From Escherichia phage ECO319P1: a stretch of DNA of 64,000 nt. Within the stretch, counting starts at the first letter, position 1. Each line of letters starts with the position of its first letter. The stretch lies in sequence record OP172790. One strand, given 5' to 3'. Position numbers and translations under genes: made by a program. The notes below the pieces were generated by a model, which saw only the letters and a list, made by a program, of their open reading frames with translations, was not told where the DNA came from and searched no databases. Below are positions 1,012 to 47,609 of the stretch, piece after piece.

Positions 1012-1034
1012 TTATTATAATGTGCAATAATTAC
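1012..1034 (-). promoter_or_regulatory. phage promoter element TAATTATTGCACATTATAATAAG, inverted copy firing leftward
   Basis: reverse complement of 1012-1034 is identical to the element at 40331-40353. Confidence 0.5.
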
Positions 1035-4703: not shown

Positions 4704-5138
4704 ATGAAGTTCTCGCCTGAAATGTATGAGGCTTACCAAACTATCAAACCAATGATGATGGATTTGTATCCGCTTGCTATGAAGCCGAACGACCCATTGC
4801 CATTGACGATTGAAGCTCAACAGAAAATGCAGACCGACCCATACATTCGTTTCAGTGATAACGAGTTGGCTTGGTTCTTTACTATCTGGCTGGCTCGCCG
4901 TGAGTACACTATGAACATCTGCCGCTTGCAAAAGCTGTATGATGAAAATGGTGTTGAAGTTTGTGATGTTCCTCATGAAGTTCTTGCTGACCGTGCGTAC
5001 CATCTAGCCAGATTCACCCGTACATTGGATATGTCCAATCGTACATGGAAAAGGTTAAAAGCAAAGGCACATGGCTACAGTAAACAGACAACAGGTAAAG
5101 ATGATTTCAACCCTTGGGGCAGACGAAGCGACGTGTGA
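4704..5138 (+). CDS. hypothetical protein
   Basis: 144 aa ORF. Confidence 0.45.
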   Translation: MKFSPEMYEAYQTIKPMMMDLYPLAMKPNDPLPLTIEAQQKMQTDPYIRFSDNELAWFFTIWLARREYTMNICRLQKLYDENGVEVCDVPHEVLADRAYHLARFTRTLDMSNRTWKRLKAKAHGYSKQTTGKDDFNPWGRRSDV

Positions 5139-6163: not shown

Positions 6164-6383
6164 ACTGCATAACGCAACGCTGTATAAACATGACGGTGGT
6201 GCATGGCTTGAAGGTCGTATTTATAACGACACCCATACCCACGGCAATCATCCGTTCCGTGATGGTACTCCAGTCACCACAACTAATGTGAGTGATGAAG
6301 TTCTGGATGGTGGCAACACCTATATGATTACCCGCAACACGACTTATAAAATGGTCGGTGTGGTTCGTGAGGTGGAGTTATGA
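6132..6383 (+). CDS. hypothetical protein
   Basis: 83 aa ORF, start uncertain. Confidence 0.35.
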   Translation: MESPQMNHHAELHNATLYKHDGGAWLEGRIYNDTHTHGNHPFRDGTPVTTTNVSDEVLDGGNTYMITRNTTYKMVGVVREVEL

Positions 6384-7267
6384 TTAAGCTGCTGCTTAAC
6401 AATGTGGAAATGCACTTGAATCGTAAGCGTTTCCCTGATATGGCCACCGGTATTGAAATCGTTGGTCAAGTTCCTGCCCGTGTTGAAGTGGCAACTATTG
6501 ACGCCCGCTTTGATGGAGTTGCAAGCCCAAATGACATGCTCTTTGACATTGCGCAAGCGGTTGATGTGGTGCGCTCTATTAACAGTACTGCGGTTATTCG
6601 TCTGTTTATTCCGTATCTCCCATACGCAAGACAAGACCGCCGCATGACCAAGCATGACGCTTTCAGTTTGAAAGTGTTCGGTAACCTGTTGAATTCATTG
6701 AAGATTAACACAATCATGTGCTTCGATGCTCATTCAGATGTTGCCGCAGGTATCATTGATAACCTGACTGTGATTGGTCAAGACCGAATCATGGGCATCA
6801 GTGAAGTCAGTCACGCATTGACTGTCAACGACCCGCTGATTGTTGCGCCTGATATGGGTGCTGTGAAGAAGATTCACAAAGTCTGTGCGAGCCTTAACCG
6901 TGCTGATTCACCGATTGTCATGGACAAAGAGCGTGAGCCGTCAACTGGTAAGATTGGTAATCATAAGATTATCTTTGGTACTGAGCGTGTTGATGGTCGT
7001 AACTGCTTGATTGTAGACGACATTTGTGATGGTGGTCGTACATTCATTAGCGCAGCGACTGAGTTAAAAGCTGCTGGGGCTGCAACAGTTAGTCTGTATG
7101 TAACTCACGGCATCTTCTCTCAGGGCATTGACGCTCTGTTAGGTGGTGGTATTGATAAAGTATTCACCACTGACTCTTTAATCGACACTGGAACTCTGGC
7201 ATCTGAAAAGGTGCGTGTGTTTAAGTGTAACGATATTCTTTCTGCCTTTTCGATGGGACGTATCTAA
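6380..7267 (+). CDS. adps: PRPP-synthetase-family kinase; candidate ADP-ribose pyrophosphokinase (Adps-like)
   Basis: Prs motifs PYARQDRR, DAHS and PRPP-binding loop LIVDDICDGGRTF; GAGGTGGAG RBS. Confidence 0.75.
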   Translation: MIKLLLNNVEMHLNRKRFPDMATGIEIVGQVPARVEVATIDARFDGVASPNDMLFDIAQAVDVVRSINSTAVIRLFIPYLPYARQDRRMTKHDAFSLKVFGNLLNSLKINTIMCFDAHSDVAAGIIDNLTVIGQDRIMGISEVSHALTVNDPLIVAPDMGAVKKIHKVCASLNRADSPIVMDKEREPSTGKIGNHKIIFGTERVDGRNCLIVDDICDGGRTFISAATELKAAGAATVSLYVTHGIFSQGIDALLGGGIDKVFTTDSLIDTGTLASEKVRVFKCNDILSAFSMGRI

Positions 7268-8932
7268 ATGAAACTGAATCCTCTGTTTGCTGTTGATGGT
7301 TATAAGTTCTCTCATGGCCCGGCCTATCCGAAAGGCACTAACAAGCTGTATGATGTGTTCACACCTCGCAGCGATAAGTATTTCAACAGTCCGTTCTTTA
7401 AGAACTTGGACATTCGTAGCCCGCTGATTTGGGTTGGTATGCAAACCTTCATTCAGCATTGGTTAGTGGACGAGTTCAATGAGAGCTTCTTCAAAGCTGA
7501 TAAAGGTGCTGCTGTTGCCGAATTCAAGGAATTCCTTGATGCTTACTTCGGCGCAGATGCTGTATCTACAGATAACATCGCTGGTCTTCATGACCTTGGT
7601 TATCTGCCACTTGTAATCAAGACGATTCCTGAAGGTTGCAATGTGGATATGAAGGTTGCGACCTGCACCTTCGTCAACACCCATGACGACTTCGCATGGC
7701 TGGTTGGCTATCTCGAAACTTTGGTCAGTGCTGAACTGTGGCCTGCTGCAACTGCTGCCACTATCGCAATGAACTACAAGGCAATCGGCACCTATTGGGC
7801 TGAACTGACTTGTGAAACCAAAGACCACCTGCTGTGGCAATTCCACGACTTCAGTGCTCGTGGTGACATGGGCATGTGGGCTTGTAGCTTAGTTGGCCTC
7901 GGTCACTTAGCATCTTTCCGTGGTACTGACTCGGTGTTCGCACTGAAACGTACAATGACGCACTATGCTGTGCCTAATGTTCCTGCGACTGGCTACCTGT
8001 ACGGTGGTTCTGTTCCGGCAACTGAGCACTCAGTAATGTGCATGGGAGAAAAAGTAAGTGAACTCGAAACGTTCTCGCGGCTCATTCAAGAAGTATATCC
8101 AACGGGAATCGTCAGTATTGTCTCGGACACATGGGATTACTGGAAGGTTATCACCGAATTCCTCCCGACCCTTGCTGACACGATTAATGAACGTGACGGC
8201 AAAGTGGTCATTCGTCCAGATTCTGGTGACCCTATTGATATCATTTGTGGACGCCTATTTACTGACCTGAATGGTTGTGAACATCTGGGTCATGTACAGA
8301 CTGTGCTCATGTCAAAACCGGGTGCTGTTGGTCTGTACAAAGGAACCTATTATGAGTTCAAACGTGCAAGCGAAGAACTTGTAGTTGTGCCTGAGCATGT
8401 AGTTGCTGGCTCAATCGAAATGATGTGGCGTACCTTTGGTGGCACCATCAATAAGAAAGGCTTCAAGGTTCTGAATCCGAAGATTGGCCTGATTTATGGT
8501 GATTCAATCACTATGGAACGTGCCGAAGAAATCTTTGCTCGCCTCGCCGCGAAGGATTTCGCATCTTCAAACGTTGTGCTGGGCATCGGTTCATACACTT
8601 ATCAGTATGTGACCCGTGACACCTTCGGCTTCGCCATGAAAGCAACTTATGGTGAAGTAGACGGCGTTGGTCGTGAAATCTTTAAAGACCCTGCGACTGA
8701 CGATGGCACTAAGAAGTCCGCCAAAGGTCTGCTGAAACACGCATTCATTGATGGCGTATGGACTCAGACAGACATGGCATCTGCTCGTGAAGAACAAGAC
8801 ACTGAGCTGTTGACAGTGTTCCGCGACGGTGTTGCATATCCACATTGCGACATTGAAGTTGTTCGTCAGCGTGTAGACGCTCTGGTCGATGGTCTGGTTT
8901 ACTATCGCATGAAGAAGGAAGGACTGATTTAA
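7268..8932 (+). CDS. namat: Nampt-family phosphoribosyltransferase; candidate nicotinamide ADP-ribose transferase (Namat-like)
   Basis: N-terminus LFAVDGYKFSHG typical of nicotinamide phosphoribosyltransferases; 554 aa; immediately follows the Prs-like gene. Confidence 0.75.
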   Translation: MKLNPLFAVDGYKFSHGPAYPKGTNKLYDVFTPRSDKYFNSPFFKNLDIRSPLIWVGMQTFIQHWLVDEFNESFFKADKGAAVAEFKEFLDAYFGADAVSTDNIAGLHDLGYLPLVIKTIPEGCNVDMKVATCTFVNTHDDFAWLVGYLETLVSAELWPAATAATIAMNYKAIGTYWAELTCETKDHLLWQFHDFSARGDMGMWACSLVGLGHLASFRGTDSVFALKRTMTHYAVPNVPATGYLYGGSVPATEHSVMCMGEKVSELETFSRLIQEVYPTGIVSIVSDTWDYWKVITEFLPTLADTINERDGKVVIRPDSGDPIDIICGRLFTDLNGCEHLGHVQTVLMSKPGAVGLYKGTYYEFKRASEELVVVPEHVVAGSIEMMWRTFGGTINKKGFKVLNPKIGLIYGDSITMERAEEIFARLAAKDFASSNVVLGIGSYTYQYVTRDTFGFAMKATYGEVDGVGREIFKDPATDDGTKKSAKGLLKHAFIDGVWTQTDMASAREEQDTELLTVFRDGVAYPHCDIEVVRQRVDALVDGLVYYRMKKEGLI

Positions 8933-13808: not shown

Positions 13809-14681
13809 ATGGTTTGGGCAGTTATTGAAAACCACAAAGGCCAACGGGAAGATTTCCGTAAGCCGTGCTTTGGTTTCATGTCCTACATTCATCAGTGGTA
13901 CGAAACTGACGAGTGGGACGACGAAGAGGACGATTGGGAATACGAATACCTTGAAGGTTTCGAACCCGCCGAACTCAACCTCATGCACTACTTCCCTGAT
14001 TTCCGCAACCATATGCCGAGTCAGGATTTGCCTGAGTTCCGTGAGAAGTATCTGCCTGTGCTGTTGGAAGCTGTGAAGCTTCTGCCTCAGTATTACTCGA
14101 ACGTTGAGTACACTGCTCCAACTGATAGCACTCAGGAGACGTTTACGTTCGCCCTGCAAGATGCGAACATGCAAACGACAATCATCGGTGCTATGATGCT
14201 GCGTAACATTGCTCAGTATTCTGGTATGCGTCGCGTGTTCCGTCTTTGCGTTGACGCTGGCCTTGACCCTGTAACCTGCTTCGTTATGGGTAACATGTAC
14301 AGCAGCAACTACTGCTCGTTTGGTGCTGATGCTGGTAAGTATCTGGCAAACCCTGTTCACTACGGTGACGAGTCAATCTTCCCAGATGAAACTCGCGCTT
14401 GTGATATCCAGGCGTTCATTGACGGTAAGCTCGGTCACATCTACCAAGGTGTGTGGGGCGATACTGAAAATGGTTATGGTCGTTATGGTGAGTATGACGG
14501 TGATACCGCACCTCGCTTTGAACGTACCGGTAATCGTTCAACCATCACTGACACTCTGCTGTTGGCTGATGATTACGTTGACTCACCATTGCTGATGGAT
14601 ATCGAAATCGGTGTTTGTTCATCGGCTCGCTTCAGTGATGAAGAGTTGATTGTTCTTGCTGGTAAAATTACTGGTAAATAA
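13809..14681 (+). CDS. hypothetical protein with acidic N-terminal tract (part of ligase cluster)
   Basis: 290 aa ORF; contains 12-mer copy 5. Confidence 0.5.
   Translation: MVWAVIENHKGQREDFRKPCFGFMSYIHQWYETDEWDDEEDDWEYEYLEGFEPAELNLMHYFPDFRNHMPSQDLPEFREKYLPVLLEAVKLLPQYYSNVEYTAPTDSTQETFTFALQDANMQTTIIGAMMLRNIAQYSGMRRVFRLCVDAGLDPVTCFVMGNMYSSNYCSFGADAGKYLANPVHYGDESIFPDETRACDIQAFIDGKLGHIYQGVWGDTENGYGRYGEYDGDTAPRFERTGNRSTITDTLLLADDYVDSPLLMDIEIGVCSSARFSDEELIVLAGKITGK
14359..14370 (+). repeat. copy 5 of 12-mer ACTACGGTGACG
   Basis: exact match, read as H-Y-G-D. Confidence 0.9.
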
Positions 14682-14692
14682 AGGATAAAACA

Positions 14693-15637
14693 ATGTCAGT
14701 AAAATTCGACGTAGTTTACAAGGATGGATTCAAATTGAAAATGACCTCAATTTGTTTCGGTGTAATGGAGAAGGGGCGCTGGAATGAAATCAACGGGTAT
14801 CGCAATATGCCCGCTGAGAATCATCAGGATGCAGACCAGCGCTTCATTCAGTTCTACACCAACGCTTACATTCACCCGATGTGGGCGTATGAAGAAGGTA
14901 TTAAGCGCGATTGGCCTCGTGGTGAAGATAACCAAGAAGGTCGAAACAAAGCTTCGAAGAACTTCATCAATGAGATGAAAGAACTTCAGAAAGACATGCC
15001 GTTCCTGCAAGGGCTTGTCACCTTCCATCCATTGTTACACGTTGCCCGTGTGCATATCAAAAATCACACGGTTGACCAGATTATGCTGGCATTGTTTTTG
15101 GTACGTAACATGTGCCATTACAGCAACAACTGTTTCACTTACCGCTGGTTACGTGAGACATACAACATGCGTCCAATGCTGGCGGCAGTAATGTGCCATC
15201 AGTTCTCAATGGACTTAGGCTCGTTCGGGCGTCATTCGTTCTCTCCAGCATGTCTGGGTGAGTACAACTGGATTAACCCCCAGACGTTCGGTAAAGAGTC
15301 GTTGCTTCGTTTCATGACCCATACGAAAGAAACAGAATTCGAATATCGTCAGGGCATGTGGAAGGACAGTAAAGGTTATCGTCGTGACGACCACTTTGCT
15401 CGTAACGATGTTATCTTCGACAGCGAAATCGGCGGCTCGAACAAATACTGGAAGATGGTAGCACCATTCAGTATTCCGGGCGACGAAGCGATTAATGCCA
15501 ATCAATGTAAAGACCGTTATAGCGGTATGGTGATTGGTCGCAGTTGGAACCACGAACTGAGCCAAGGTGAAGTAGAGAACTACATCAGTGGTGTTCTCGA
15601 ACTTCTGGCAGAAAACAATATCCCAGCAACTCTCTAA
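14693..15637 (+). CDS. hypothetical protein (part of ligase cluster)
   Basis: 314 aa ORF with RBS; no recognisable motif. Confidence 0.5.
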   Translation: MSVKFDVVYKDGFKLKMTSICFGVMEKGRWNEINGYRNMPAENHQDADQRFIQFYTNAYIHPMWAYEEGIKRDWPRGEDNQEGRNKASKNFINEMKELQKDMPFLQGLVTFHPLLHVARVHIKNHTVDQIMLALFLVRNMCHYSNNCFTYRWLRETYNMRPMLAAVMCHQFSMDLGSFGRHSFSPACLGEYNWINPQTFGKESLLRFMTHTKETEFEYRQGMWKDSKGYRRDDHFARNDVIFDSEIGGSNKYWKMVAPFSIPGDEAINANQCKDRYSGMVIGRSWNHELSQGEVENYISGVLELLAENNIPATL

Positions 15638-15649
15638 GGTAATAAAGAC

Positions 15650-16447
15650 ATGCGTAAGATTTACTTAGGTTCAGACCCAGAGCTGTTTACTCGTGATGCA
15701 AACGGCCTCGTATCATCTGTAGCTGGTAAGCTCGGTGCTGATAAGTATCACAAACGCCATGTCACGGACGACATTCGCATTCAGGAAGATAACGTGCTGG
15801 TTGAATTTGATATCAACCCGCATGGCACATTTGCAGGGTTCAACGATAACATGATGCGTGGTATCGCTGCCTGTAATGACGCTGCGAAATCTGTCGGTCA
15901 CGAAGTTGACCTGACTATCTGCTCTCACGTTTTCAGCGATGCAGAGCTTCGTACTTTCCACAAAGACGCATTCGTGTTTGGCTGTGAGCCAGACTTCAAT
16001 GCCCTGACTGGTTCTCGTAATGCGAAACCGGCTGCTGCGGATGTAGGTCTGCGTACTGCCGGTGGTCATATTCATATCGGTTATAACGAAGACCGCAACG
16101 TTGACTCTGAATCTCAGAAGATTCTGGGTGTAATGTGTGATTACTTCCTCGGTATGCCAGCTATCCTTCTGGATGGTGACGACCGTCGTAAAGAACTGTA
16201 TGGTAAAGCTGGAGCTTGCCGCTTCAAAACCTACGGTATCGAGTATCGTGTTCTGTCCAACTTCTGGACTCTGGACGATAAGATGCGTCTGTGGGCTTGG
16301 GAACAGGCTCATAAAGCATACGACTTCACTGTTGGTGATGCAATGGTGTTGGCGTCAATTGTTGACCCGGAAGAAATTCAGCGTGTCATTAATAACAATG
16401 ACAAGGCAATGGCTGAACATTACATCAAGCTGCTGGAGATTATGTAA
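15650..16447 (+). CDS. predicted COOH-NH2 ligase (GCS2-like, phage type)
   Basis: N-terminal GSDPELF and central GGHIHIGY resemble the phage COOH-NH2 ligase type 2 family as I recall it; not verified by search. Confidence 0.5.
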   Translation: MRKIYLGSDPELFTRDANGLVSSVAGKLGADKYHKRHVTDDIRIQEDNVLVEFDINPHGTFAGFNDNMMRGIAACNDAAKSVGHEVDLTICSHVFSDAELRTFHKDAFVFGCEPDFNALTGSRNAKPAAADVGLRTAGGHIHIGYNEDRNVDSESQKILGVMCDYFLGMPAILLDGDDRRKELYGKAGACRFKTYGIEYRVLSNFWTLDDKMRLWAWEQAHKAYDFTVGDAMVLASIVDPEEIQRVINNNDKAMAEHYIKLLEIM

Positions 16448-17025
16448 TGGCTTTACACGATGATTTTGCAATGTACTATAATGGTACATATGTTGGTTAT
16501 CGTAAAGATGGGGATGTAGTCCCCTTCTACATCGAAGCGGTTGATACTGACCGCTCAATCTTTGATTACTCAGAAGCGTCTGAGTCAGAGATGTTCGGTG
16601 ACCAAGCGCTGAGTGCGTTGACCTTCTACGGAAGTATCGACGGCAACCGTGCAACGATTAACCACGACGACCCGAATCTGGTTCTTGAAATGCCAGATAG
16701 TAAGTACATCCAGTTCCGTGGACGTTACTATTGGGTTCAATGGCGAGCGAACCGTTCCACTAAGAAGGGAATGGGTCAGCGTCGTCTCTCAGGCATTCCG
16801 CAATTCAACCATGAAGTCGCTCGTGCGATGTTCTCGGAGCGGTCTGCACCAAACGTAATCGCAGGATGCTTGTTACGTCAGAATAATGAACTTCACTACA
16901 AGGGTGTGGTGGTCGGTTCAATCAATGGCAACGAAGTTGTGTTGGTTTCCGAAGCTGCTCACCTGTTACGTTTTGTATCACGGGAGATGCAGGAATGCCA
17001 AGTTTCGGTAGCACAAGCGGGCTAA
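16447..17025 (+). CDS. hypothetical protein (part of ligase cluster)
   Basis: 192 aa ORF; overlaps the next gene by 31 nt. Confidence 0.4.
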   Translation: MALHDDFAMYYNGTYVGYRKDGDVVPFYIEAVDTDRSIFDYSEASESEMFGDQALSALTFYGSIDGNRATINHDDPNLVLEMPDSKYIQFRGRYYWVQWRANRSTKKGMGQRRLSGIPQFNHEVARAMFSERSAPNVIAGCLLRQNNELHYKGVVVGSINGNEVVLVSEAAHLLRFVSREMQECQVSVAQAG

Positions 17026-18506
17026 GTGAGTCGTCATTAGCAACCCTCCGCGAAGCGGGGGTGATTGACTCAGAAGGTAACTGGTTAACTGGTAACATGC
17101 CTTCACCTTTTGGTGGAGGTTTGGTTGGTTATAACACTGCTGATGTTATTCCTGACACACCACCACCAAGACCAGCACGGACAAGACACGATGGGCGACC
17201 ATTGCGTTCAAGTTCGTATGCCGACATGTTCGGTGGTCTTCGTGCTCAGCCGGTTGCTATGGATGAAATGCCTGAGACTTCAGGTGATTATTATATTTCT
17301 GGTAATGTAGAGGCCGATTCAGAAATGCAAACTATTGCGCAAATTGTTGGGCACCGTGCAACTTATCCAACTCTTGAGAAGCATCCGCTGATTGTAGGTA
17401 CAAATTTGGCAGGTGTTGAGATTGAGTTGGAGGGCATCACTGCTCGTGCTCCACGTTTCAACTACTGGACAGCAAAAGGTGATGGCTCTCTCCGTAACCG
17501 TGGGATGGAATTTGTTTGTTCATCTCCGTGGGGTGGTCGTGACCTGTACAATGCAGCCATTGAAATTGATGGTTGGTTGTTCACTGCTCAGCCAGAAGAT
17601 ACTTGGCGTTGTTCTACTCACGTACACATTGATGTTCGTGATATGACTGTGCCGCAGTTGAAGCGAATGATTCTGGCATATGCAGTTTACGAACGTATTC
17701 TGTTCAAATGCTCAGGCTTCCATCGTTACAAGAATAACTTCTGTGTAGCGTTGGGCTTCGCTCAGGAGTTGGTAACAACTCTGTCTAATGCGTGGGCACT
17801 TCCTGATAACCAGTTCATCAGTCGTTTGACTGGAAATTGGGATAAGTATTCCAGCATCAACATGCTTCCGATTCAGCAGTTCGGCTCTGTCGAATTCCGT
17901 ATCAGTGAAGCGAAGTGGCGCAAAGGTCGTCTGATTCGTTTGGTTAACCGCTTCCTGTCTCTGAAAGAGATTGCGATGCAGCCATTCGAGGGTTCAGAGT
18001 CTGAATTCATTCAGATGCTGGTCAATACCCCGATTAGCAAAATCATTCGTAAAGGTCTGCCGAAGGTTCTTCCAGATGCAGAGATGGATATCGAGATTGG
18101 TTATAAACTGGCTCACGATATCATTAGCATGGCGGCCTTGCGTCGCCTGTCTATCCGCCCTCTGGTTCCGAATCTGTCAGATGATTCACGACAGTTTAAC
18201 GTTGAAATCTTCGAGCCGGGTTATGAGCATATTATGACTCGTATCAACCGCTCAGATAATAACGTTGAGTTGCCTCGTGAAGCCCCTGCAACTATCAACT
18301 TTAGTTGGTGGTATGAAGTTGAGAATCTGATGCTTCAGATGGGTCATACCTACGAGCGCAGTTGGTTCACAGCATCAAGCAACAACCGTCAGATTCACTC
18401 ACTGTTCGAAGAGTATTGTCGTGAACGTCGTGCTGAGCGTCGTCGTCAGGATGAAATCGTTGAACGTGAAGATGATGAAGACGATACCTCTCCAGAGTTC
18501 TGGTAA
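16995..18506 (+). CDS. predicted amidoligase (glutamine-synthetase-like)
   Basis: GVEIELEG...RNRGMEFV...STHVHIDV pattern; 503 aa. Confidence 0.6.
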   Translation: MPSFGSTSGLSESSLATLREAGVIDSEGNWLTGNMPSPFGGGLVGYNTADVIPDTPPPRPARTRHDGRPLRSSSYADMFGGLRAQPVAMDEMPETSGDYYISGNVEADSEMQTIAQIVGHRATYPTLEKHPLIVGTNLAGVEIELEGITARAPRFNYWTAKGDGSLRNRGMEFVCSSPWGGRDLYNAAIEIDGWLFTAQPEDTWRCSTHVHIDVRDMTVPQLKRMILAYAVYERILFKCSGFHRYKNNFCVALGFAQELVTTLSNAWALPDNQFISRLTGNWDKYSSINMLPIQQFGSVEFRISEAKWRKGRLIRLVNRFLSLKEIAMQPFEGSESEFIQMLVNTPISKIIRKGLPKVLPDAEMDIEIGYKLAHDIISMAALRRLSIRPLVPNLSDDSRQFNVEIFEPGYEHIMTRINRSDNNVELPREAPATINFSWWYEVENLMLQMGHTYERSWFTASSNNRQIHSLFEEYCRERRAERRRQDEIVEREDDEDDTSPEFW

Positions 18507-18565
18507 GAATAAATGTGGGGTGTAAAAGCCCCAACTTCAATGTAAATAGATGAAAGGATTTTTGT

Positions 18566-20536
18566 ATGTGTGGGATTGTTCTCGCTGGTGGTAACTTAAT
18601 CGCTCGTGATGTTGAACTGTTCGGTCGTCTACTGTATGCAGATATCGTTCGTGGTGAGCATTCAACGGGTGTGTTCGCAGGGTTTCGTCCTTTTGGTCAT
18701 GACCCAATCCTGAAACTTCGTAAAGCCGCTGTTCCGGCAGATATCTTCTTACGCCGCAAAGAGTTATGGGGTGAAGTGCGTGAACACGCAGTTCCTTCAA
18801 AGACTGTTGCAAATTCTTTCACAACTGCCTATCCGAAATTTATGGTAGGCCACAACCGTTATGCAACTCAGGGTGCAATTAACGATACGAACGCTCACCC
18901 GTTCAACCACGGTAAAATCACTCTGGTTCACAATGGTACATTGACTGACCAGTCTCTGCTCCCAGACCATAAGAACTTCGCTGTTGACAGTGAAAACGTC
19001 GCATGGTCAATCAACAAAATCGGTATTGATGAAACTATTCAGAAATTGAATGGTGCATTCACTCTGGTTTGGCATAACGCCGAAGACAGCACGGTGAACA
19101 TCATCCGTAACGAAGAACGTCCATTCCATCTGGTTGAAACAACTGGTGGTGATTGGTTCGGTGCTTCGGAAGAAGACATGCTTCTGTGGTTAATTAACCG
19201 CAAGAAGTTTGCTCCAACAATCAAACGTCACTTTGAATGTGAAGTAGGTGTTCAGTACGTCTTTGACGTATCCGAAGGCTTCAAGTTCAAGGAGGAACGG
19301 AAGCATACGCTTCCAACCTTTCGCTCATATTCCTACACTGGAAGAACTGGTGGTTATTGGTATGACCAGTGGGATGATGACTATGGGTACGGAAACGGAC
19401 GAGGAACTTCAACAACTTCTCGCAACCAATCCAATAGCCAGAGCTTTAGCTCAAGCTCTTCTAGCGTAACACCGGACAGCCGTTACAAGCAGTTCAATGA
19501 TATGCTGGAAAGCCACGGCATCAACGTCAAAATGGGTGAGCAACTCCGCTTCGAGAGCTTCCAGTTTGACCAGTATCCTAAGTCTCTGGGCAAGGGTAAA
19601 ATGACCGGGTATACTGGCACTGGCGAGTATATTGAGGTTCAGGCTCACGGCACTGATATGGGCATCTTTGTTGAAGGTGCTGAGTACGATGGTAAGATTA
19701 TCTCGTGCTATGAGCAGAATTACATTCTGACAATTATCGTTCAAGACCCAAAACCTGCTCATGTTAATCAGACACTGACCCTCGGTGATTTGGTTAACTC
19801 GGCGGCAAAGGAAACTCCAATTCCTGATACAGGGATTAGTCAGGAAGAGTTGAACGAAGAGTACTACGGTGACGAGGAAGAAGACGACGGCAACGAAGTC
19901 GAAGTAACCTTGAACGGTGAGGTGTACTCAAAAAAGGAATGGGAGGGAAACGACTCATTAAATACTTGCGCAAACTGTTCCTCTCCAATCCCCTTCGACG
20001 ACGTGATTGATACGGTTGTCGATAATGGCGCTGCATTCTGCCATGATTGCGCAAAGCATTACAACCTGTTACCCCCTGAGACGGAGGAGCCAATTGCTCC
20101 TAACCGTTTCGTCTGCCAAAGCTGTGCCAACGAATTGCCGGAAGATTTAGAATCGGCAAAGCCGGGTGTCTGCATTCCTTGTCTTTGCGCTGTAACTAAA
20201 GACAACAATACGGAAATGGCACGTCAACAGTTAATCGAAAAGTACGACCGTTGGGAATCCAATTTGATGCCAGAGGAAGTGGTCACTCCACTGCTTCCGA
20301 AACCAACTGAAGTCTCTCTCGGTGAAATTTCACTGATTCGCAAGAAGTTGAAAAACAACTTGCTGGTTACTGTTAAGCAGTGGATGAAGATGAACAACTG
20401 TGGTTGGTGTCAAAAGCCAATCCAGTGGGTTGATGCTGAAGCCACTGAATTTGTTGGTCAGCAGCCATGCTGTCCGGGATGCTCCAAGAAATTAGAGATG
20501 GGCATCCTTCCAAAACCTATCAATAAGGATAAATGA
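18566..20536 (+). CDS. class II glutamine amidotransferase (Ntn) domain fused to Ser-rich linker and three C-terminal zinc ribbons
   Basis: MCGI N-terminal nucleophile, GHNRYATQG, VHNGTL; CxxC pairs in the C-terminal 200 aa; contains 12-mer copy 6. Confidence 0.7.
   Translation: MCGIVLAGGNLIARDVELFGRLLYADIVRGEHSTGVFAGFRPFGHDPILKLRKAAVPADIFLRRKELWGEVREHAVPSKTVANSFTTAYPKFMVGHNRYATQGAINDTNAHPFNHGKITLVHNGTLTDQSLLPDHKNFAVDSENVAWSINKIGIDETIQKLNGAFTLVWHNAEDSTVNIIRNEERPFHLVETTGGDWFGASEEDMLLWLINRKKFAPTIKRHFECEVGVQYVFDVSEGFKFKEERKHTLPTFRSYSYTGRTGGYWYDQWDDDYGYGNGRGTSTTSRNQSNSQSFSSSSSSVTPDSRYKQFNDMLESHGINVKMGEQLRFESFQFDQYPKSLGKGKMTGYTGTGEYIEVQAHGTDMGIFVEGAEYDGKIISCYEQNYILTIIVQDPKPAHVNQTLTLGDLVNSAAKETPIPDTGISQEELNEEYYGDEEEDDGNEVEVTLNGEVYSKKEWEGNDSLNTCANCSSPIPFDDVIDTVVDNGAAFCHDCAKHYNLLPPETEEPIAPNRFVCQSCANELPEDLESAKPGVCIPCLCAVTKDNNTEMARQQLIEKYDRWESNLMPEEVVTPLLPKPTEVSLGEISLIRKKLKNNLLVTVKQWMKMNNCGWCQKPIQWVDAEATEFVGQQPCCPGCSKKLEMGILPKPINKDK
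19863..19874 (+). repeat. copy 6 of 12-mer ACTACGGTGACG
   Basis: exact match, read as Y-Y-G-D. Confidence 0.9.
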
Positions 20537-20537
20537 T

Positions 20538-20771
20538 ATGGATAATTCAATGAGTGAAGTGAAGGTTTTGCGTCTGGATTCACCTGTGGTGGTTCGAAAA
20601 GTTCCAATGACTGACTTCGGTAGTGATATGCTCCGAGCCATTCGTCGCTTCCAAACTGAGGCGTATGAACGTGCAAAAGGTCAGAAGGTGGAAATCCCTT
20701 ATCCTGTGTGTATTCACATGATGATGTCGGATTACTGCAAGCTGAAAGGCATCCAAGTAACCAATGGCTGA
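20538..20771 (+). CDS. hypothetical protein
   Basis: 77 aa ORF. Confidence 0.4.
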   Translation: MDNSMSEVKVLRLDSPVVVRKVPMTDFGSDMLRAIRRFQTEAYERAKGQKVEIPYPVCIHMMMSDYCKLKGIQVTNG

Positions 20772-20976
20772 TAAAGATGTCGAAAAGGCTCGCAAGGAAA
20801 GCGAGTCTTGGCACAACCGTCAGATTGGAAACTTGTTAGAAGAAGAGTGGGAGTACGCAAAACAAATGGGTACTCAGGAGGGCCAAGAGGCCATCTGGTA
20901 TCTCACTCTTTCTTATGAAACACTGGAAGCAGAAATCATGGAACACAAACGTGATATCCGTGAACTTCATCTTTGA
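20764..20976 (+). CDS. hypothetical protein
   Basis: 70 aa ORF. Confidence 0.4.
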   Translation: MADKDVEKARKESESWHNRQIGNLLEEEWEYAKQMGTQEGQEAIWYLTLSYETLEAEIMEHKRDIRELHL

Positions 20977-21046
20977 GTGAGTTATTTATAGGGTGTCGGT
21001 GAAGCGCCCTATGTGAAATTCATTCTCAACTAAAAGGTACTTATCA

Positions 21047-22246
21047 ATGGCACGTTTAGCAATCTACTCCCACGCTCCTTCTGATTCTGTTAATGCACTT
21101 AAAGCGCACTTATCAGTGGAAGGCGTTGACCTGATTAAAATCAAGCGTCAGAACAGCCGCTTCGCTGGTCGTGAAGGCGATGTAATCATTAACTATGGTT
21201 CATCCTCTTTCCCAATGGAACGTGTTGGTCGTGGTCGTCTGCTGAACAATCCGGGAGCAATCTCTCTGGCTTCTAACAAACTTCGTGCATTCGAGGTGTT
21301 CCAGAACGCTGGGGTTAAGACTGTAGAGTGGACTAATCAACACTCAATCGCTCAAGGTTGGGTAGAACAAGGTGGTATGGTTTATGCAAGAACAACGCTT
21401 CAAGGACATTCTGGTGCCGGTATCGTTATTGGCTACGGAAATCCTGCCGGAGTGGGAGATGCGGGCGACGTACAGGTTACTAGCACCCTTCCTCGCGCAC
21501 AACTGTACACCAAAGCAATCCTGCAAGAACGTCGAGAGTTCCGAATCCATGTAATGGATGGTAAGATTACTTACGTTCAGCAGAAACGTCGTCGTGATGG
21601 TTTCCGTGAGAATGAAACCTACAGCAATCTGGTTCGTAACCACCACACTGGTTGGATTTATGCAACTCAGAACGCTGATGTGTGTGACGAAGCGAAGCGC
21701 GAAGCAATCAAAGCAATCGAAGCTTTAGGTCTGGACTTCGGTGCAGTAGATGTAATCACACGCCGTGGTGAAGCATGGGTTCTCGAAGTCAACACTGCTC
21801 CGGGCATGTCTGGCACTAACCTCGAAACTTATGCAAACAACTTCACTCGCCTGATGAACGGTGAACCCGTTGAAGGTGTAGTGGTTGATATGTCTATCCC
21901 TGTGGAGACGAACAATGATAACCGCAACACCCGTAATGAACGCCAGTCTGGCAATCGCAATACACAACCTCAACCAGAACAACCTCAACCAGAACAACCG
22001 ACGCCAACCCCTGTCGCTACCCCAGCGCCAACAGCACCAGCCGAAGCGCCGGTTTCCTCAGCGACAACCCGCAACACCAATGGTACTGCATTAATTGATA
22101 ACGGTGTTTACAAACTGTTGGTTGATGGTAATGCCACTGTTGGTAAATTCGTTCAAGATTGTGCCCACTTCGAAATTCTTGGCTGGGAGGTTCCGGTCGA
22201 GCATGAAGATGCAACTATTGGGGAACTCCTGTGCACTTTGAACTAA
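21047..22246 (+). CDS. ATP-grasp ligase (RimK/glutathione-synthetase-like) with Pro/Glu-rich linker and extra C-terminal domain
   Basis: GAVDVITRRGEAWVLEVNTAPGMSG ATP-grasp core; QPQPEQPQPEQPTPTP linker. Confidence 0.65.
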   Translation: MARLAIYSHAPSDSVNALKAHLSVEGVDLIKIKRQNSRFAGREGDVIINYGSSSFPMERVGRGRLLNNPGAISLASNKLRAFEVFQNAGVKTVEWTNQHSIAQGWVEQGGMVYARTTLQGHSGAGIVIGYGNPAGVGDAGDVQVTSTLPRAQLYTKAILQERREFRIHVMDGKITYVQQKRRRDGFRENETYSNLVRNHHTGWIYATQNADVCDEAKREAIKAIEALGLDFGAVDVITRRGEAWVLEVNTAPGMSGTNLETYANNFTRLMNGEPVEGVVVDMSIPVETNNDNRNTRNERQSGNRNTQPQPEQPQPEQPTPTPVATPAPTAPAEAPVSSATTRNTNGTALIDNGVYKLLVDGNATVGKFVQDCAHFEILGWEVPVEHEDATIGELLCTLN

Positions 22247-41731: not shown

Positions 41732-42289
41732 ATGGCAAAGCGACTAAGTGCTCCAGTTCCAAAGAAGGAACATTATAAAGACTTCGATGAATTATATCGT
41801 GAGTATTGGGCACCACTTCAGAAACAATTCTTCTACATGGAAAAGGATTATCAGCTTGCTGAGGATTTAGCTCAGGAAACGATGCTCCGAGTGTGGCAGT
41901 ATTGGGACAGAATCCAGTGGGATAAACTTGGTGGTGTGATTGGTACAATTGCCAACAACGTCCGGTACGGTTATGTTCGAAAAGAATTTGACCGAGTTGA
42001 TACAGAGATGTACGACAACATTCTGGATTTTGAATGTCATGATGATGGCTTAACTGACCCAATTCGTGATGTATTAAATAATGAGGCAAGCACTTTTGTT
42101 CAGTATGCTTTTGAGAAGCTTAAACCACAGGAACGTGAGTTGTTCTCGGATGTTTATCTGAAGAACCTGAAAACAAAAGATGTTGCAAAGAAACATGGTA
42201 TGACTACTGGCCATATCTATGTTCAATTGTTCCGTATTCGAACTCAACTGGTTACTAACCTTGAGCGTCACGATATTGGAACAAACTAA
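41732..42289 (+). CDS. phage sigma factor (sigma70 family, ECF-like size)
   Basis: region 2-like AEDLAQETMLRVWQYW and region 4 HTH-like LKTKDVAKKHGMTTGHIYVQLFRIR. Confidence 0.6.
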   Translation: MAKRLSAPVPKKEHYKDFDELYREYWAPLQKQFFYMEKDYQLAEDLAQETMLRVWQYWDRIQWDKLGGVIGTIANNVRYGYVRKEFDRVDTEMYDNILDFECHDDGLTDPIRDVLNNEASTFVQYAFEKLKPQERELFSDVYLKNLKTKDVAKKHGMTTGHIYVQLFRIRTQLVTNLERHDIGTN

Positions 42290-45197: not shown

Positions 45198-45409
45198 TGG
45201 CTCGAAAACCACGTAAACCAAAAGTTAAACCGATTATCAATGTTTGGGACATGGATGAAGAAACGATTCAGAAGGTTATTACGCATCTGGAGAAGGATTT
45301 CCCGCTCTCAGGAATGTTAATCCGTTACAAAGCAGAGATTGGTCGTCGTAATGACGGCCTTTCCGTTGAAGATTTCTATAAAGTTAAGGAAGACGATGAA
45401 GATTTATAA
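45191..45409 (+). CDS. hypothetical protein
   Basis: 72 aa ORF. Confidence 0.35.
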   Translation: MVMARKPRKPKVKPIINVWDMDEETIQKVITHLEKDFPLSGMLIRYKAEIGRRNDGLSVEDFYKVKEDDEDL

Positions 45410-45953
45410 TGCCGGTCATATGCTTACCCGTGGTGCTCAGTTCCAACGTCAAGTTGAAAAAGATGAACTGAATAGTGTTGCTGATGATTTACAGTGGTAC
45501 GACCCGAAGGAAAATAAAGAAATCAACGATAAGGCTAATCTGGATAATAACGATGGACTCGCTGAGAAGATTGTTCGCCAAGACACAAATGCTCTGTTTT
45601 GGGCTGATACTGTGGTCATTGAGCCCCTACCTGAAGCTCTTGGAACTCATGTCGAACTCGGACAGCTCAAAGGCATGCGGGATATGGCGATTGCGATTGT
45701 TAATCTTATCAATAACGCTACCTCCGTCGATGATGCTTTTATGCAAATCGGTGCTCTCTGTGACAAACAAATAACTCGTTCTGTATACCCACACTATGAG
45801 GATATCCGCAGATTCAAAGGGGCGAATGAGTCCGAAGACCGTCGTTCTTGGGGTATCAATCAATATGTGTATGGTGTATGCCTTGACTTAACAGACGGTA
45901 AGGGTTTATACGACTGGAGCGAGGTTCTGAGGGAACTTAGCAATGAAGATTGA
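45396..45953 (+). CDS. nucleoside 2-deoxyribosyltransferase-like protein
   Basis: N-terminus MKIYNAGHM resembles the NDT-family start; AAGGA RBS 6 nt upstream of ATG 45396. Confidence 0.45.
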   Translation: MKIYNAGHMLTRGAQFQRQVEKDELNSVADDLQWYDPKENKEINDKANLDNNDGLAEKIVRQDTNALFWADTVVIEPLPEALGTHVELGQLKGMRDMAIAIVNLINNATSVDDAFMQIGALCDKQITRSVYPHYEDIRRFKGANESEDRRSWGINQYVYGVCLDLTDGKGLYDWSEVLRELSNED

Positions 45954-46347
45954 TATCTACCGCAAGAGAGAGGGGGAAAACGTCGTAGGCTTTCCTATGG
46001 CGTTTGCCAGAAAGGTTTATGAGGGTTGCCCCATTTTCCAACACCGGGATTTCTCCGAGTTTTTCTTTTCAACATCAATGACAATTCGTAATACCCTTCG
46101 TTGGGAGTACGTTGTTACAGATGATGATGGCAATGTGACGGCCTCTATGGCTGTCTACAAAGACTTTGATATGCATGTAGGCGAATGCCTTAGTGTATTG
46201 GTAGCGTTCAGCACAGACGACCACAGCTTGTTTAAAGCGTACCGTTGGTTGATGAAGCTGGCAAAAGAAGAGATGTGCCCTTTCGTAGCTTATACACGGA
46301 AGACTGGTGATTTTACAATGGATTTAGTTTACAGGAAGGTTTCATGA
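45943..46347 (+). CDS. hypothetical protein
   Basis: 134 aa ORF. Confidence 0.4.
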   Translation: MKIDIYRKREGENVVGFPMAFARKVYEGCPIFQHRDFSEFFFSTSMTIRNTLRWEYVVTDDDGNVTASMAVYKDFDMHVGECLSVLVAFSTDDHSLFKAYRWLMKLAKEEMCPFVAYTRKTGDFTMDLVYRKVS

Positions 46348-46613
46348 GCGCATTAGATACTATGGTAGGTGGTTCACATTATCAAGCTGAAGGTGGTATT
46401 CAGCCAATTCAGTTCTATCATGCAAATCCACAGCTTGACTTTCAACAGTGTAATATGATTAAATACGCATATCGACACAAAGATAAGAACGGTTTGCAGG
46501 ACTTACTGAAGGTTATTCACTATGCGCTGCTCGAAGCTGAGTTTGACTACGGTGACGACAAAGATAAGTTCGAAGCGTTTAAGGAGCAAGTACGTGGCCT
46601 CGTCAAAATCTAA
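46344..46613 (+). CDS. hypothetical phage protein
   Basis: 89 aa ORF; contains 12-mer copy 7. Confidence 0.4.
   Translation: MSALDTMVGGSHYQAEGGIQPIQFYHANPQLDFQQCNMIKYAYRHKDKNGLQDLLKVIHYALLEAEFDYGDDKDKFEAFKEQVRGLVKI
46546..46557 (+). repeat. copy 7 of 12-mer ACTACGGTGACG
   Basis: exact match, read as D-Y-G-D. Confidence 0.9.
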
Positions 46614-46706: not shown

Positions 46707-46732
46707 AAATAATTATTGCACATTATAATAGA
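46707..46732 (+). promoter_or_regulatory. phage promoter element (AATAATTATTGCACATTATAATAGAG)
   Basis: conserved element copy. Confidence 0.55.
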
Positions 46733-46772: not shown

Positions 46773-47393
46773 ATGTTAAAATTTATTTGGTCTATTATAG
46801 CCACTGTAGGTGTACTTGCTTCCTGTTACATATCTGATGCTTCTCCTATCATCACAACAGCTTCTGTCATTGGTGTCTTATTTGTTCTTGGTGTAGCTTT
46901 CAAGAATGCTTGGACAAACCTGTTAGGTGCTGCATTAACGCTGATATATGGATACCTTTCTTACAGTGCAGGTTATTATGCTAACGCACTGATAAATGTG
47001 ACAGTGCTATTCCCACTACAGTTAATAGCTTTCTGGTTCTGGAAGAAGACAGAAGGTAAGACGTTTACATTAACTGAAGATTGGAAGAAAGCAATCATAG
47101 TGTTATCTGGTATAGGTATCCTCATTTCCTGCACACTGACTAAATCCTATGGTTCACATCTTTGGCTTCATGATGGAATCTCAGCGGTATTAGTTATTGT
47201 TGCTACTTTCCTCCTGATGTTAAAAGTGAAAGAACAGTGGTATGCTTGGATTCCTTATAATGCACTTGAAGTGTTTATGTGGTTCATGGCTGCTTCTTTA
47301 AATCCTGATATGTTGGCTATCTTTGTGATGCGTAGCATCTTCTTTGCTAACTCTCTGATTGGTGCTTACGAGTGGTTCGGTAAGAAATCTTAA
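46773..47393 (+). CDS. pnuC: PnuC-like nicotinamide riboside transporter candidate
   Basis: multi-TM protein of about 206 aa with W...N..G and LINVT segments; start at ATG 46773, not the TTG inside the promoter element. Confidence 0.5.
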   Translation: MLKFIWSIIATVGVLASCYISDASPIITTASVIGVLFVLGVAFKNAWTNLLGAALTLIYGYLSYSAGYYANALINVTVLFPLQLIAFWFWKKTEGKTFTLTEDWKKAIIVLSGIGILISCTLTKSYGSHLWLHDGISAVLVIVATFLLMLKVKEQWYAWIPYNALEVFMWFMAASLNPDMLAIFVMRSIFFANSLIGAYEWFGKKS

Positions 47394-47450
47394 TAACATT
47401 CACTATTATATAATGTCATGGTTTTAATCCTCATATGTAATGGTGAATTT

Positions 47451-47579
47451 ATGAAAGTCAAAGATTATAATGAAGAACGTTGGGAACGCAACTCTGAATC
47501 AAACAAAGAGCGTAAGATTGCTAAGAAACGTTTTAAAGAGAAACATAATCCTTGGGCTAGTTTGAGTAATAAAAAATAA
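47451..47579 (+). CDS. small basic protein (42 aa)
   Basis: ORF followed directly by a terminator. Confidence 0.3.
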   Translation: MKVKDYNEERWERNSESNKERKIAKKRFKEKHNPWASLSNKK

Positions 47580-47583
47580 GTTA

Positions 47584-47609
47584 GGGCTGCCTTCGGGCGG
47601 CCTTTTTTC
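47584..47609 (+). terminator. intrinsic terminator (UUCG tetraloop)
   Basis: GGCTGCC-TTCG-GGCGGCC then TTTTTT. Confidence 0.75.

What the first reader, a model, noticed from the sequence alone, without database searches (positions are those of the whole stretch)
46773..47393. PnuC-like transporter driven by a phage promoter element
A multi-TM protein with PnuC-like segments sits immediately after one of the conserved promoter elements. A nicotinamide riboside transporter would supply substrate for NAD+ salvage and complements the Prs/Nampt pair 40 kb away, pointing to a dispersed NAD+ economy encoded by the phage.
Basis: partly seen in the sequence, partly recalled or inferred. Interest (0 to 1): 0.6.

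Follow-up and report, generated by a model that had tools for sequence, protein, structure and literature searches.

The report
Phage PnuC-type nucleoside transporter gene
This is a real phage gene for a PnuC-family membrane transporter, already annotated in close relatives. It most likely imports the NAD+ precursor nicotinamide riboside, but its conserved neighbour is a deoxyribosyltransferase-like enzyme rather than the NadR enzyme known from other phages, so its substrate and its link to the phage's NAD+ genes are still open.

Summary
ORF 46773-47393 (+) encodes a 206-aa, eight-helix protein of the PnuC family: Pfam PF04973 at 2.5e-25, TIGR01528 above its cutoff, and an AlphaFold model matching PDB 4QTN with TM-score 0.84. 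It is under purifying selection. A 19-nt element precedes it and occurs five times in the window against 0.06 expected.

The window is a Crifsvirus (7-11-like podophage), about 89% identical to Cronobacter phages A24 and GAP52. The orthologue has carried a PnuC-type transporter annotation in GenBank since the 2012 GAP52 genome. A phage PnuC (Bas30_87) was shown in 2026 to import nicotinamide riboside as part of NARP3.

The "Prs/Nampt" pair (6380-8932) is NARP1 (Adps plus Namat), which rebuilds NAD+ from ADP-ribose and nicotinamide, not from NR or NMN. No NadR-like kinase/adenylyltransferase is encoded, so this is not NARP3.

This divergent, apparently phage-only PnuC subfamily (69 phage records) lies beside or within about 1.4 kb of a nucleoside-2-deoxyribosyltransferase-like gene in every case whose coordinates I checked. 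One such phage lacks NARP1. The upstream element is not the experimentally defined 7-11 late promoter type; a late-type promoter match overlaps the pnuC stop codon and reads downstream.

The gene is ordinary. The NDT-like pairing is an untested lead.

The parts
46708..46730 (+). Conserved intergenic element AATAATTATTGCACATTATAATA: a 10-bp palindrome AATAATTATT, then GCAC, then a -10-like TATAAT at 46724-46729. It is a candidate phage promoter or operator for pnuC.
   Evidence: Five copies in the window against 0.06 expected. All are sense to the local genes, and four lie about 10-45 nt upstream of a start codon. Conserved upstream of pnuC in A24 and GAP52. Not called as a sigma-70 promoter. 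[quoted passage not shown]
46773..47393 (+). pnuC-like gene: a 206-aa PnuC/Pnu-family facilitator with an N-terminal TM helix plus a 3+1+3 core.
   Evidence: The WxxWxxxN motif is present (W156, W159, N163), as are the gate tryptophans W90 and W201. Q83 matches Bas30_87 Q94.
47380..47405 (+). Match to the 7-11/GAP52 late promoter consensus recognised by the phage sigma factor (GTAAGA-N16-ACTA). It overlaps the pnuC stop codon and reads into the downstream small ORF, endonuclease I and spanin genes.
   Evidence: Seven matches in the window against 0.97 expected, all sense to the local genes. It corresponds to predicted promoter P86 of GAP52 in Table S4 of PMC8948821.
47418..47579 (+). Small ORF (53 aa, phrog_35703, unknown function) between pnuC and the terminator.
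   Evidence: Annotated in A24 and GAP52.
47583..47604 (+). Intrinsic-terminator-like hairpin (9-bp stem, TTCG loop, T run).
   Evidence: It belongs to a family of four similar hairpins in the window (family D10).
45396..45953 (+). Nucleoside-2-deoxyribosyltransferase-like gene (185 aa, phrog_1817). It is the conserved genomic partner of this PnuC subfamily.
45943..46347 (+). Intervening gene (134 aa, phrog_3986, unknown function).
46344..46613 (+). Intervening gene (89 aa) that is a DUF3310 domain only. Relatives label it 'nucleotide kinase', but no kinase domain is present.
   Evidence: Pfam PF11753 at 2.1e-10. The PHROG matches cover only the C-terminal part of the kinase-fusion families.
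6380..7267 (+). Adps-like gene (PRPP-synthetase-like): first gene of NARP1.
7268..8932 (+). Namat-like gene (Nampt-like): second gene of NARP1.
   Evidence: 45% identical to SPbetaL1 Namat. The A24 and GAP52 orthologues are listed as 'Adps-associated'.
41732..42289 (+). Phage sigma factor (regions 2 and 4). It corresponds, by position and annotation, to the sigma factor of 7-11 (gp47) that reads late promoters.
   Evidence: PMC8948821.

Best explanation
The gene encodes a functional PnuC-family facilitator in the host inner membrane.

Transcription: it is probably transcribed from the conserved element just upstream and belongs to the non-late gene set. A late-type promoter starts only at its 3' end.

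Mechanism (inferred from the characterised Pnu transporters): a trimeric, SWEET-like uniporter lets an uncharged or cationic nucleoside-type vitamin diffuse inward. Net uptake is driven by intracellular conversion of the substrate.

Substrate: the most likely substrate is nicotinamide riboside. That would give the infected cell a net new supply of pyridine nucleotide precursor, while the phage's NARP1 pair (Adps plus Namat) recycles ADP-ribose and nicotinamide. Because no phage NadR-like enzyme exists, NR would have to be processed by host NadR, by the conserved neighbouring NDT-like enzyme, or by both.

Shown here: family membership, fold, motifs, conservation, linkage to the NDT-like gene, the NARP1 identity of the distant pair, and the absence of a NadR-like gene.

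Inferred only: the substrate, the direction of transport, the time of expression, and any role in countering NAD+-depleting defence.
For: - HMM, structure and motif evidence for the PnuC family.
- Two NR-coordinating residues that were validated by mutagenesis in Bas30_87 (Q94, N180) are kept as Q83 and N163, together with the WxxWxxxN motif (motif from PMC5749112).
- A phage PnuC-like protein binds NR (Kd about 0.66 uM) and is required for NARP3 function (PMC13464706).
- Purifying selection: pN/pS 0.12.
- The module co-occurs with NARP1 in Crifsvirus, Privateervirus and Cetovirus phages and in phage vB_CsaP_009; for Libingvirus BUCT695 only its Adps is listed.
- Enterobacterial hosts have NadR and PnuC (E. 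coli pnuC; nadR from PMC13464706).
Against: - The subfamily is only 24-30% identical to validated NR transporters.
- Two of the four NR-contacting residues of N. mucosa PnuC are replaced: Q to T145 and Y to F190.
- Bas30_87 N45 is G34 here.
- The Q83 position is S or T in the Vibrio-phage members of the same subfamily.
- A phage PnuC alone, working with host NadR, did not counter Sir2-HerA.
- The invariable partner is an NDT-like enzyme. That enzyme also occurs without any PnuC or NAD+ gene found nearby, inside nucleotide/replication modules of Clostridium phages and Bacillus prophages, which points to (deoxy)nucleoside metabolism.
- PJNS034 has the pair without NARP1.
Confidence: 0.55

Rival explanations
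1. It is a PnuN-type transporter. It imports deoxynucleosides or another nucleoside rather than NR, and the adjacent NDT-like enzyme converts them by base exchange or N-glycosidic cleavage. That would make the pair a two-gene nucleoside salvage module feeding phage DNA synthesis, unrelated to NARP1.
For: - The Pnu family contains non-NR members: PnuT, PnuX and the predicted deoxynucleoside transporter PnuN (PMC7749635 and PMC5749112).
- The PnuC subfamily is found in 69 phage records. Its taxon counts equal those of the NDT-like gene in Vibrio (51), Proteus (8), Cronobacter (6), Pantoea (1) and Escherichia (1).
- In every case with listed coordinates the two genes lie 9-60 nt apart, overlap, or are within 1.4 kb of each other.
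- The pair sits in two unrelated genomic contexts: the Grimontviridae replication module and the tRNA region of the Vibrio T5-like phages.
- The NDT-like family sits beside RNR, ligase, dUTPase and dNMP kinase genes in other phages.
- PJNS034 has the pair but no NAD+ genes.
- The subfamily has its own residues at likely cavity positions: T145 and E/Q166.
Against: - No sequence comparison with a PnuN could be made.
- TIGR01528, the PnuC equivalog model, is passed.
- The NDT-like enzyme has several invariant arginines, which suggests a phosphorylated substrate rather than a nucleoside.
- The window encodes no deoxynucleoside kinase to trap the product.
- Enteric hosts already have the NupC and NupG nucleoside transporters (my own knowledge).
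Confidence: 0.28
2. The PnuC-like and NDT-like proteins form an NAD+-directed pathway that differs from NARP3. NR (or NMN made from it) would be handled by the NDT-superfamily enzyme, for example releasing nicotinamide for Namat or exchanging the base, so that the module feeds NARP1 or host salvage.
For: - In the tRNA region of T5-like phages, enteric members carry NadR-like plus PnuC, while Vibrio members carry NDT-like plus PnuC. This looks like a partner swap at a similar kind of position.
- The module co-occurs with NARP1 in four lineages, plus BUCT695, for which only Adps is listed.
Against: - PJNS034 lacks NARP1.
- Nicotinamide crosses membranes without a transporter (my own knowledge), so importing NR only to release it seems wasteful.
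- No biochemical precedent was found: a search for PnuC together with deoxyribosyltransferase returned 0 papers.
Confidence: 0.12
3. It is a different kind of membrane protein (holin, spanin-associated or superinfection-exclusion protein) that merely resembles PnuC.
For: It lies two to three genes upstream of the spanin genes, and it is small and very hydrophobic.
Against: - All three HMM libraries assign it to PnuC and give no holin hit.
- It has eight helices, and a full-length structural match to 4QTN is the only significant fold hit.
- The family motifs are intact.
- A late promoter separates it from the lysis genes.
Confidence: 0.02

Closest known systems
Annotated orthologues in Cronobacter phages GAP52 (D858_gp085, YP_006987679) and A24 (PQC34_gp081)
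   Same: They are 93-94% identical in amino-acid sequence. The flanking gene order is the same, apart from an endonuclease VII insertion in GAP52. The same upstream element is present.
   Different: Nothing of substance. The window is a further species-level relative of these phages, at about 89% nucleotide identity.
NARP3 of Escherichia phage TrudiRoth (Bas30_87 PnuC-like plus Bas30_86 NadR-like; Sci Adv 2026, PMC13464706)
   Same: Both are phage-encoded PnuC-family transporters. Q94 and N180 of Bas30_87 are conserved here as Q83 and N163. Both have the 4QTN-like fold.
   Different: - Identity is only 28%.
- N45 of Bas30_87 is not conserved.
- No NadR-like gene lies next to the window's pnuC or anywhere else in the genome.
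- The partner gene here is NDT-like.
- The genome also carries NARP1.
Bacterial PnuC (N. mucosa 4QTN; E. coli b0751)
   Same: Same family, same fold (TM-score 0.84), the WxxWxxxN motif and the gate tryptophans.
   Different: - Identity is 25-30%.
- The phage protein is shorter (206 aa) than the 239-aa E. coli protein.
- Q171 and Y217 of the N. mucosa protein (chain numbering) are replaced by T and F.
- The pattern-based scan of 185,579 bacterial and archaeal species genomes found this subfamily only on one 2-kb contig. I read that contig as phage contamination, although this was not verified.
PnuN, the predicted deoxynucleoside transporter of Lactobacillus (Rodionov and Gelfand 2005, as cited in PMC7749635)
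   Same: A Pnu-family protein associated by genomic context with deoxynucleoside metabolism.
   Different: PnuN is only a prediction.
NARP1 (Adps plus Namat; Osterman et al. 2024)
   Same: The window's Prs-like and Nampt-like pair belongs to NARP1.
   Different: PnuC is not part of NARP1, and NR is not one of NARP1's substrates.

Membership tests
Pnu/PnuC transporter family (PF04973, TIGR01528) | Profile-HMM match above the curated thresholds over the full length | tested here: met
   PF04973 scores 89.9 bits against a cutoff of 27.3. TIGR01528 scores 66.4 bits against a cutoff of 42.45. phrog_1880 hits at 6.6e-48.
Pnu/PnuC transporter family (PF04973, TIGR01528) | SWEET-like 3+1+3 helix core (plus an optional N-terminal helix), as in 4QTN | tested here: met
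   The AF2 model has pLDDT 91.2 and eight helices. In Foldseek, 4QTN (E 1.7e-9, TMq 0.84) is the only significant hit.
Pnu/PnuC transporter family (PF04973, TIGR01528) | WxxW(x)3D/N motif in TM6, and gate tryptophans at the ends of TM3 and TM7 (PMC5749112) | tested here: met
   W156, W159 and N163 form the motif; W90 and W201 are the gate tryptophans. All are invariant in the subfamily alignment.
NR-specific PnuC (function) | The NR-coordinating residues: N. mucosa Q, Q, N, Y; Bas30_87 N45, Q94, N180 | tested here: inconclusive
   Q83 and N163 are kept. T145 replaces Q, F190 replaces Y, and G34 replaces Bas30_87 N45. The Q83 position is S or T in the Vibrio-phage members.
NR-specific PnuC (function) | NR binding or uptake | not testable with these tools
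   This needs uptake, ITC or MST assays.
NARP3 (phage PnuC plus NadR two-gene pathway) | An adjacent NadR-like bifunctional NR kinase / NMN adenylyltransferase | tested here: not met
   tblastn with Bas30_86 and with the Bacillus-phage NadR-like protein found nothing in the window (Bas30_86 E>1; both queries, nothing at E<=0.01) or in the whole A24 genome (nothing at E<=0.01). The neighbouring genes are NDT-like, phrog_3986 and DUF3310.
NARP1 (applies to the distant Prs/Nampt pair, not to PnuC) | An Adps-clade PRPS-like gene immediately next to a Namat-clade Nampt-like gene | tested here: met
   The two genes are contiguous (6380-7267 and 7268-8932). They are 45% and 33-34% identical to SPbetaL1 Namat and Adps. 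The A24 and GAP52 orthologues are listed in Osterman's tables. The enzymatic activity could not be tested.
PnuN-type (deoxynucleoside) Pnu transporters | Genomic association with deoxynucleoside-metabolism genes | tested here: met
   An NDT-like gene is always adjacent or within about 1.4 kb. This is context only.
PnuN-type (deoxynucleoside) Pnu transporters | Closer in sequence to PnuN than to NR-type PnuC | not tested
Holin | A holin-family HMM match and 1-4 TM helices | tested here: not met
   There is no holin hit in Pfam, NCBIfam or PHROGs, and the protein has eight helices.
7-11-type late promoter recognised by the phage sigma factor | GTAAKN-N16-ACTA upstream of the gene | tested here: not met
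   The element upstream of pnuC is AATAATTATTGCACATTATAATA. The nearest consensus match lies at 47380-47405, at the gene's 3' end.

The most novel reading that the evidence does not exclude
The NDT-like plus PnuC-like pair may be a distinct, phage-specific two-gene uptake-and-conversion module. It is seen in 69 phage genomes, spanning Grimontviridae, the Vibrio T5-like phages and the PJNS034/TacPo2 group.

In this module a deoxyribosyltransferase-superfamily enzyme, instead of a kinase such as NadR, would act as the intracellular partner of a Pnu transporter. That would be either a fourth route of phage NAD+ precursor supply or a phage pathway for importing and re-basing deoxynucleosides released by lysed neighbouring cells.
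Probability: 0.4. Interest if true: 0.6.

Novelty: new member of a known kind. Interest (0 to 1): 0.33.

Why it matters
The gene itself adds nothing new. Phage PnuC genes have been annotated for years, and one was functionally dissected in 2026.

Three points do matter:

1. The automatic reading 'PnuC feeds the Prs/Nampt pair' is biochemically wrong, because that pair is NARP1.
2. This phage combines NARP1 with a PnuC that lacks the NadR partner, and that partner was required for counter-defence in the one system tested so far.
3. The strictly conserved NDT-like neighbour gives a concrete, cheap experiment. It could either extend the list of phage NAD+-restoring pathways or give the first evidence for substrate diversification (PnuN-like) of Pnu transporters in viruses.

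Tried and rejected
- **Holin or other membrane family:** rejected by the HMMs and the fold.
- **NARP3 membership:** rejected, because no NadR-like gene exists.
- **A trapping kinase between the NDT-like gene and pnuC:** the gene labelled 'nucleotide kinase' in relatives is only a DUF3310 domain.
- **A canonical sigma-70 promoter upstream:** not called by the scan, and no conserved -35 is present.
- **A 7-11 late promoter upstream:** not present.
- **phmmer of the NDT-like protein against the PDB:** no hit. A family profile was needed.
- **Scan of bacterial genomes with the wide PnuC alignment:** failed because there was no conserved stretch to search with. The subfamily alignment found a single 2-kb contig, which I read as phage contamination without verifying it.
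- **IMG/VR scan:** found nothing.
- **Literature search for PnuC together with deoxyribosyltransferase:** 0 papers.
- **The NSMB 2014 PnuC structure paper:** not held. The NR-contact residues were therefore taken from PMC13464706 and mapped by a constant +25 offset onto the 4QTN chain numbering. That offset is my inference.
- **The idea that the NDT-PnuC pair depends on NARP1:** weakened, because PJNS034 lacks NARP1.
- **Whether the NDT-like gene always has a PnuC nearby:** no. It stands alone in Clostridium phage phi8074-B1 and in Bacillus prophages, and it is also found in Staphylococcus phages, where the PnuC subfamily is absent.

Full report
**What is there**

The window is most of the genome of a 7-11-like podophage of the genus Crifsvirus (Grimontviridae). 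The 3.3 kb around the finding is 88-90% identical over its whole length to Cronobacter phages A24 and GAP52, and the gene order is the same.

ORF 46773-47393 (+) starts with ATG and encodes 206 aa. It matches these profiles:
- Pfam PF04973 NMN_transporter (E 2.5e-25, 89.9 bits, nearly full profile).
- The NCBIfam PnuC equivalog TIGR01528 (66.4 bits against a cutoff of 42.45).
- PHROG 1880, 'PnuC-like' (6.6e-48).

The only solved structure it matches by sequence is the N. mucosa NR transporter PnuC, 4QTN (1.5e-14). An AlphaFold2 model built on 16 homologues has pLDDT 91.2 and eight long helices. Foldseek against the PDB returns 4QTN (E 1.7e-9, TM 0.84) and nothing else below E 0.5.

The Pnu-family motif WxxW(x)3D/N (PMC5749112) is present as W156-W159-N163. 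The proposed gate tryptophans are W90 and W201. Compared with the A24 orthologue, pN/pS is 0.12.

**The upstream element and the transcription unit**

ATTATTGCACATTATAATA occurs five times in the window (1013 on the minus strand; 11158, 24918, 40333 and 46712 on the plus strand). The expectation is 0.06.

All copies are sense to the local genes, and four of them lie about 10-45 nt upstream of a start codon. Three further copies sit at the corresponding positions in A24. The copy upstream of pnuC is conserved in A24 and GAP52. In GAP52 an endonuclease VII gene is inserted between two copies of the element.

The element has a 10-bp palindrome (AATAATTATT) and a -10-like hexamer, but no conserved -35, and the sigma-70 scan does not call it.

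It is not the promoter type mapped experimentally in phage 7-11 and predicted for GAP52. That type is GTAAKN-N16-ACTA and is read by the phage sigma factor (PMC8948821). The late consensus occurs seven times in the window against about 1 expected, always in the sense orientation. One copy (47380-47405) overlaps the pnuC stop codon and corresponds to GAP52 'P86'.

So pnuC is the last gene before a late-promoter match. That promoter would serve the small ORF 47418-47579 and, beyond the terminator-like hairpin at 47583-47604, the endonuclease I and spanin genes. Calling the upstream element a 'phage promoter' is reasonable, but it is untested and its class is unknown.

**The NAD+ context**

The Prs-like gene (6380-7267) and the Nampt-like gene (7268-8932) are real. 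They are NARP1:
- The Nampt-like protein is 45% identical to SPbetaL1 Namat (E about 1e-121 to 1e-131 depending on the search), and the Prs-like protein is 33-34% identical to SPbetaL1 Adps. These are the enzymes used for the biochemistry in Osterman et al..
- T4-type NadV proteins are only about 27% identical.
- The A24 and GAP52 orthologues appear in that paper's tables as Adps and 'Adps-associated' Namat.

NARP1 converts ADP-ribose plus ATP to ADPR-PP, and then ADPR-PP plus nicotinamide to NAD+ (10.1101/2024.02.11.579819). NR and NMN are not substrates of this pathway, so PnuC does not 'supply' this pair.

Turning NR into NAD+ needs NR kinase and NMN adenylyltransferase, the two activities of NadR. 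tblastn with two phage NadR-like proteins finds nothing in the window or in the complete A24 genome.

The 2026 NARP3 paper showed three things about the phage PnuC-like Bas30_87:
- It binds NR.
- It acts together with the adjacent NadR-like Bas30_86.
- Neither gene alone rescues phage from Sir2-HerA (PMC13464706).

The window's gene is therefore not NARP3. An 'orphan PnuC plus host NadR' arrangement has, if anything, negative experimental precedent as a counter-defence.

**The conserved partner**

The closest homologues of the window protein (38-49% identical) are in these phages:
- Proteus phages of the genus Privateervirus.
- Aeromonas phage BUCT695.
- Cronobacter phage vB_CsaP_009.
- Pantoea phage TacPo2.
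- E. coli phage PJNS034.
- About 50 Vibrio T5-like phages (Ceto-like and pVp-1).

That makes 69 records at E<=1e-20. A pattern-based scan of 185,579 bacterial and archaeal species genomes found the subfamily only on one 2-kb contig, which I take to be phage contamination without having verified it.

In every case I inspected, a gene of PHROG 1817 ('nucleoside 2-deoxyribosyltransferase') lies immediately upstream. It often overlaps the pnuC start or is separated from it by fewer than 60 nt. Elsewhere one to four small or mobile genes intervene, as in the window.

Counts per host genus of the NDT-like gene equal those of the PnuC subfamily for Vibrio, Proteus, Cronobacter, Pantoea and Escherichia.

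The pair occurs in two unrelated genomic settings: the replication module of Grimontviridae and the tRNA region of the Vibrio Demerecviridae. In the enteric Demerecviridae and in Bacillus Tsamsavirus, the PnuC partner is NadR-like instead. A Clostridium MAG contig that looks like a phage carries a different PnuC lineage 1.1 kb from an NDT-like gene.

The converse does not hold. The NDT-like gene also occurs without the PnuC subfamily in Staphylococcus phages. It stands without any PnuC nearby in Clostridium phage phi8074-B1 and in Bacillus prophages, where it sits in nucleotide/replication modules.

The NDT-like protein (45396-45953) has these features:
- It keeps the Tyr, Asp and Glu expected for NDT/DNPH1-type N-glycosyl enzymes (Y4, D63, E87).
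- It has several invariant arginines.
- A family profile hits PDB 7M5H at 9.5e-7.
- The C-terminal half has no structural match.

**Substrate**

The main arguments for NR:
- The family-level assignment to PnuC.
- Retention of Q83 and N163, which correspond to Bas30_87 Q94 and N180; both were essential for NR binding.
- Co-occurrence with NARP1 in several lineages.

The arguments against certainty:
- Identity to validated NR transporters is only 24-30%. E. coli and N. mucosa PnuC are equally distant from each other, so this argument is weak.
- Two N. mucosa contact residues are replaced (T145, F190).
- The Q83 position varies within the subfamily (S or T in the Vibrio phages).
- E/Q166 is specific to the subfamily.
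- The Pnu family includes thiamine (PnuT), riboflavin (PnuX) and predicted deoxynucleoside (PnuN) transporters.
- PJNS034 carries the NDT-PnuC pair with no Adps, Namat or NadR.

My estimates are: NR import about 0.55; a PnuN-like (deoxy)nucleoside importer coupled to the NDT-like enzyme about 0.28; an NAD+-directed but non-NadR pathway through the NDT-like enzyme about 0.12.

**Comparison with what is known, and verdict**

The gene is an orthologue of a gene that has carried a PnuC-type transporter annotation in GenBank since the 2012 GAP52 genome. Phage PnuC-NadR operons were noted by Osterman et al. and characterised as NARP3 in 2026.

The finding is therefore a new member of a known kind and is of low intrinsic surprise.

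The residual interest lies in the conserved NDT-like/PnuC-like pairing. I found no literature on it, and it is directly testable.

Noticed in passing
window 2762, 3525, 6112, 9295, 14358, 19862, 46545 (+) and 61989 (-): The 13-mer GACTACGGTGACG (at most 1 mismatch) occurs 8 times against 0.05 expected. In the four copies where the frame could be read, it lies inside unrelated ORFs and is read in frame as (D/Y)YGD. Whether it is a DNA-level site or a recurrent peptide motif is unexplained.
   Followed up: partly
window 26977, 29346, 35757, 40790, 47380 (+); 54821, 60067 (-): There are seven matches to the experimentally derived 7-11/GAP52 late promoter consensus GTAAKN-N16-ACTA, against about 1 expected. 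All are sense to the local genes, so the late transcription map of 7-11 seems to carry over to this phage.
   Followed up: partly
window 1013-1031 (-), 11158, 24918, 40333, 46712 (+); L001 4414-4430 and about 4750-4775: The 19-nt element contains a perfect 10-bp palindrome, AATAATTATT. In GAP52 an endonuclease VII gene sits between two copies of the element, which suggests the element can act as an insertion or recombination point for mobile genes.
   Followed up: partly
window 9127-10053 (+): A TerC-family integral membrane protein (PF03741, 1.6e-40) is encoded just downstream of the NARP1 pair. Its role in a phage is unclear.
   Followed up: no
window 6380-7267 versus 7268-8932: The Adps-like protein is only 72% identical to its A24 orthologue, while the adjacent Namat-like protein is 95% identical. 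This points to a recombination breakpoint between the two NARP1 genes.
   Followed up: no
window 46344-46613 (+): This 89-aa protein is a DUF3310 domain only. The 'nucleotide kinase' and 'dNMP kinase' labels on its orthologues in A24, GAP52 and BUCT695 come from PHROG families in which DUF3310 is fused to a kinase.
   Followed up: yes
L021 134-463 (Bacillus andreraoultii prophage): A 109-aa PQ-loop/SemiSWEET-like membrane protein (weak Pfam hit) lies about 4.5 kb upstream of the NDT-like gene, in a cluster with dUTPase, dNMP kinase and DHH-phosphoesterase genes. It may be another small SWEET-type transporter in a phage nucleotide-metabolism module.
   Followed up: no
window 13809-22246 (+) (A24 gp030-gp038 region): There is a run of genes annotated in A24 as glutamine amidotransferase, COOH-NH2 ligase and RimK-like ATP-grasp enzymes, with a gamma-glutamyl cyclotransferase gene further along. 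This could be a nucleotide, DNA or peptide modification pathway.
   Followed up: no
window 36374, 41685, 43748, 47586 (+): A family of four near-identical terminator-like hairpins (GCTGCCTTCGGGCGGC followed by a T run) punctuates the early/middle gene cluster.
   Followed up: no
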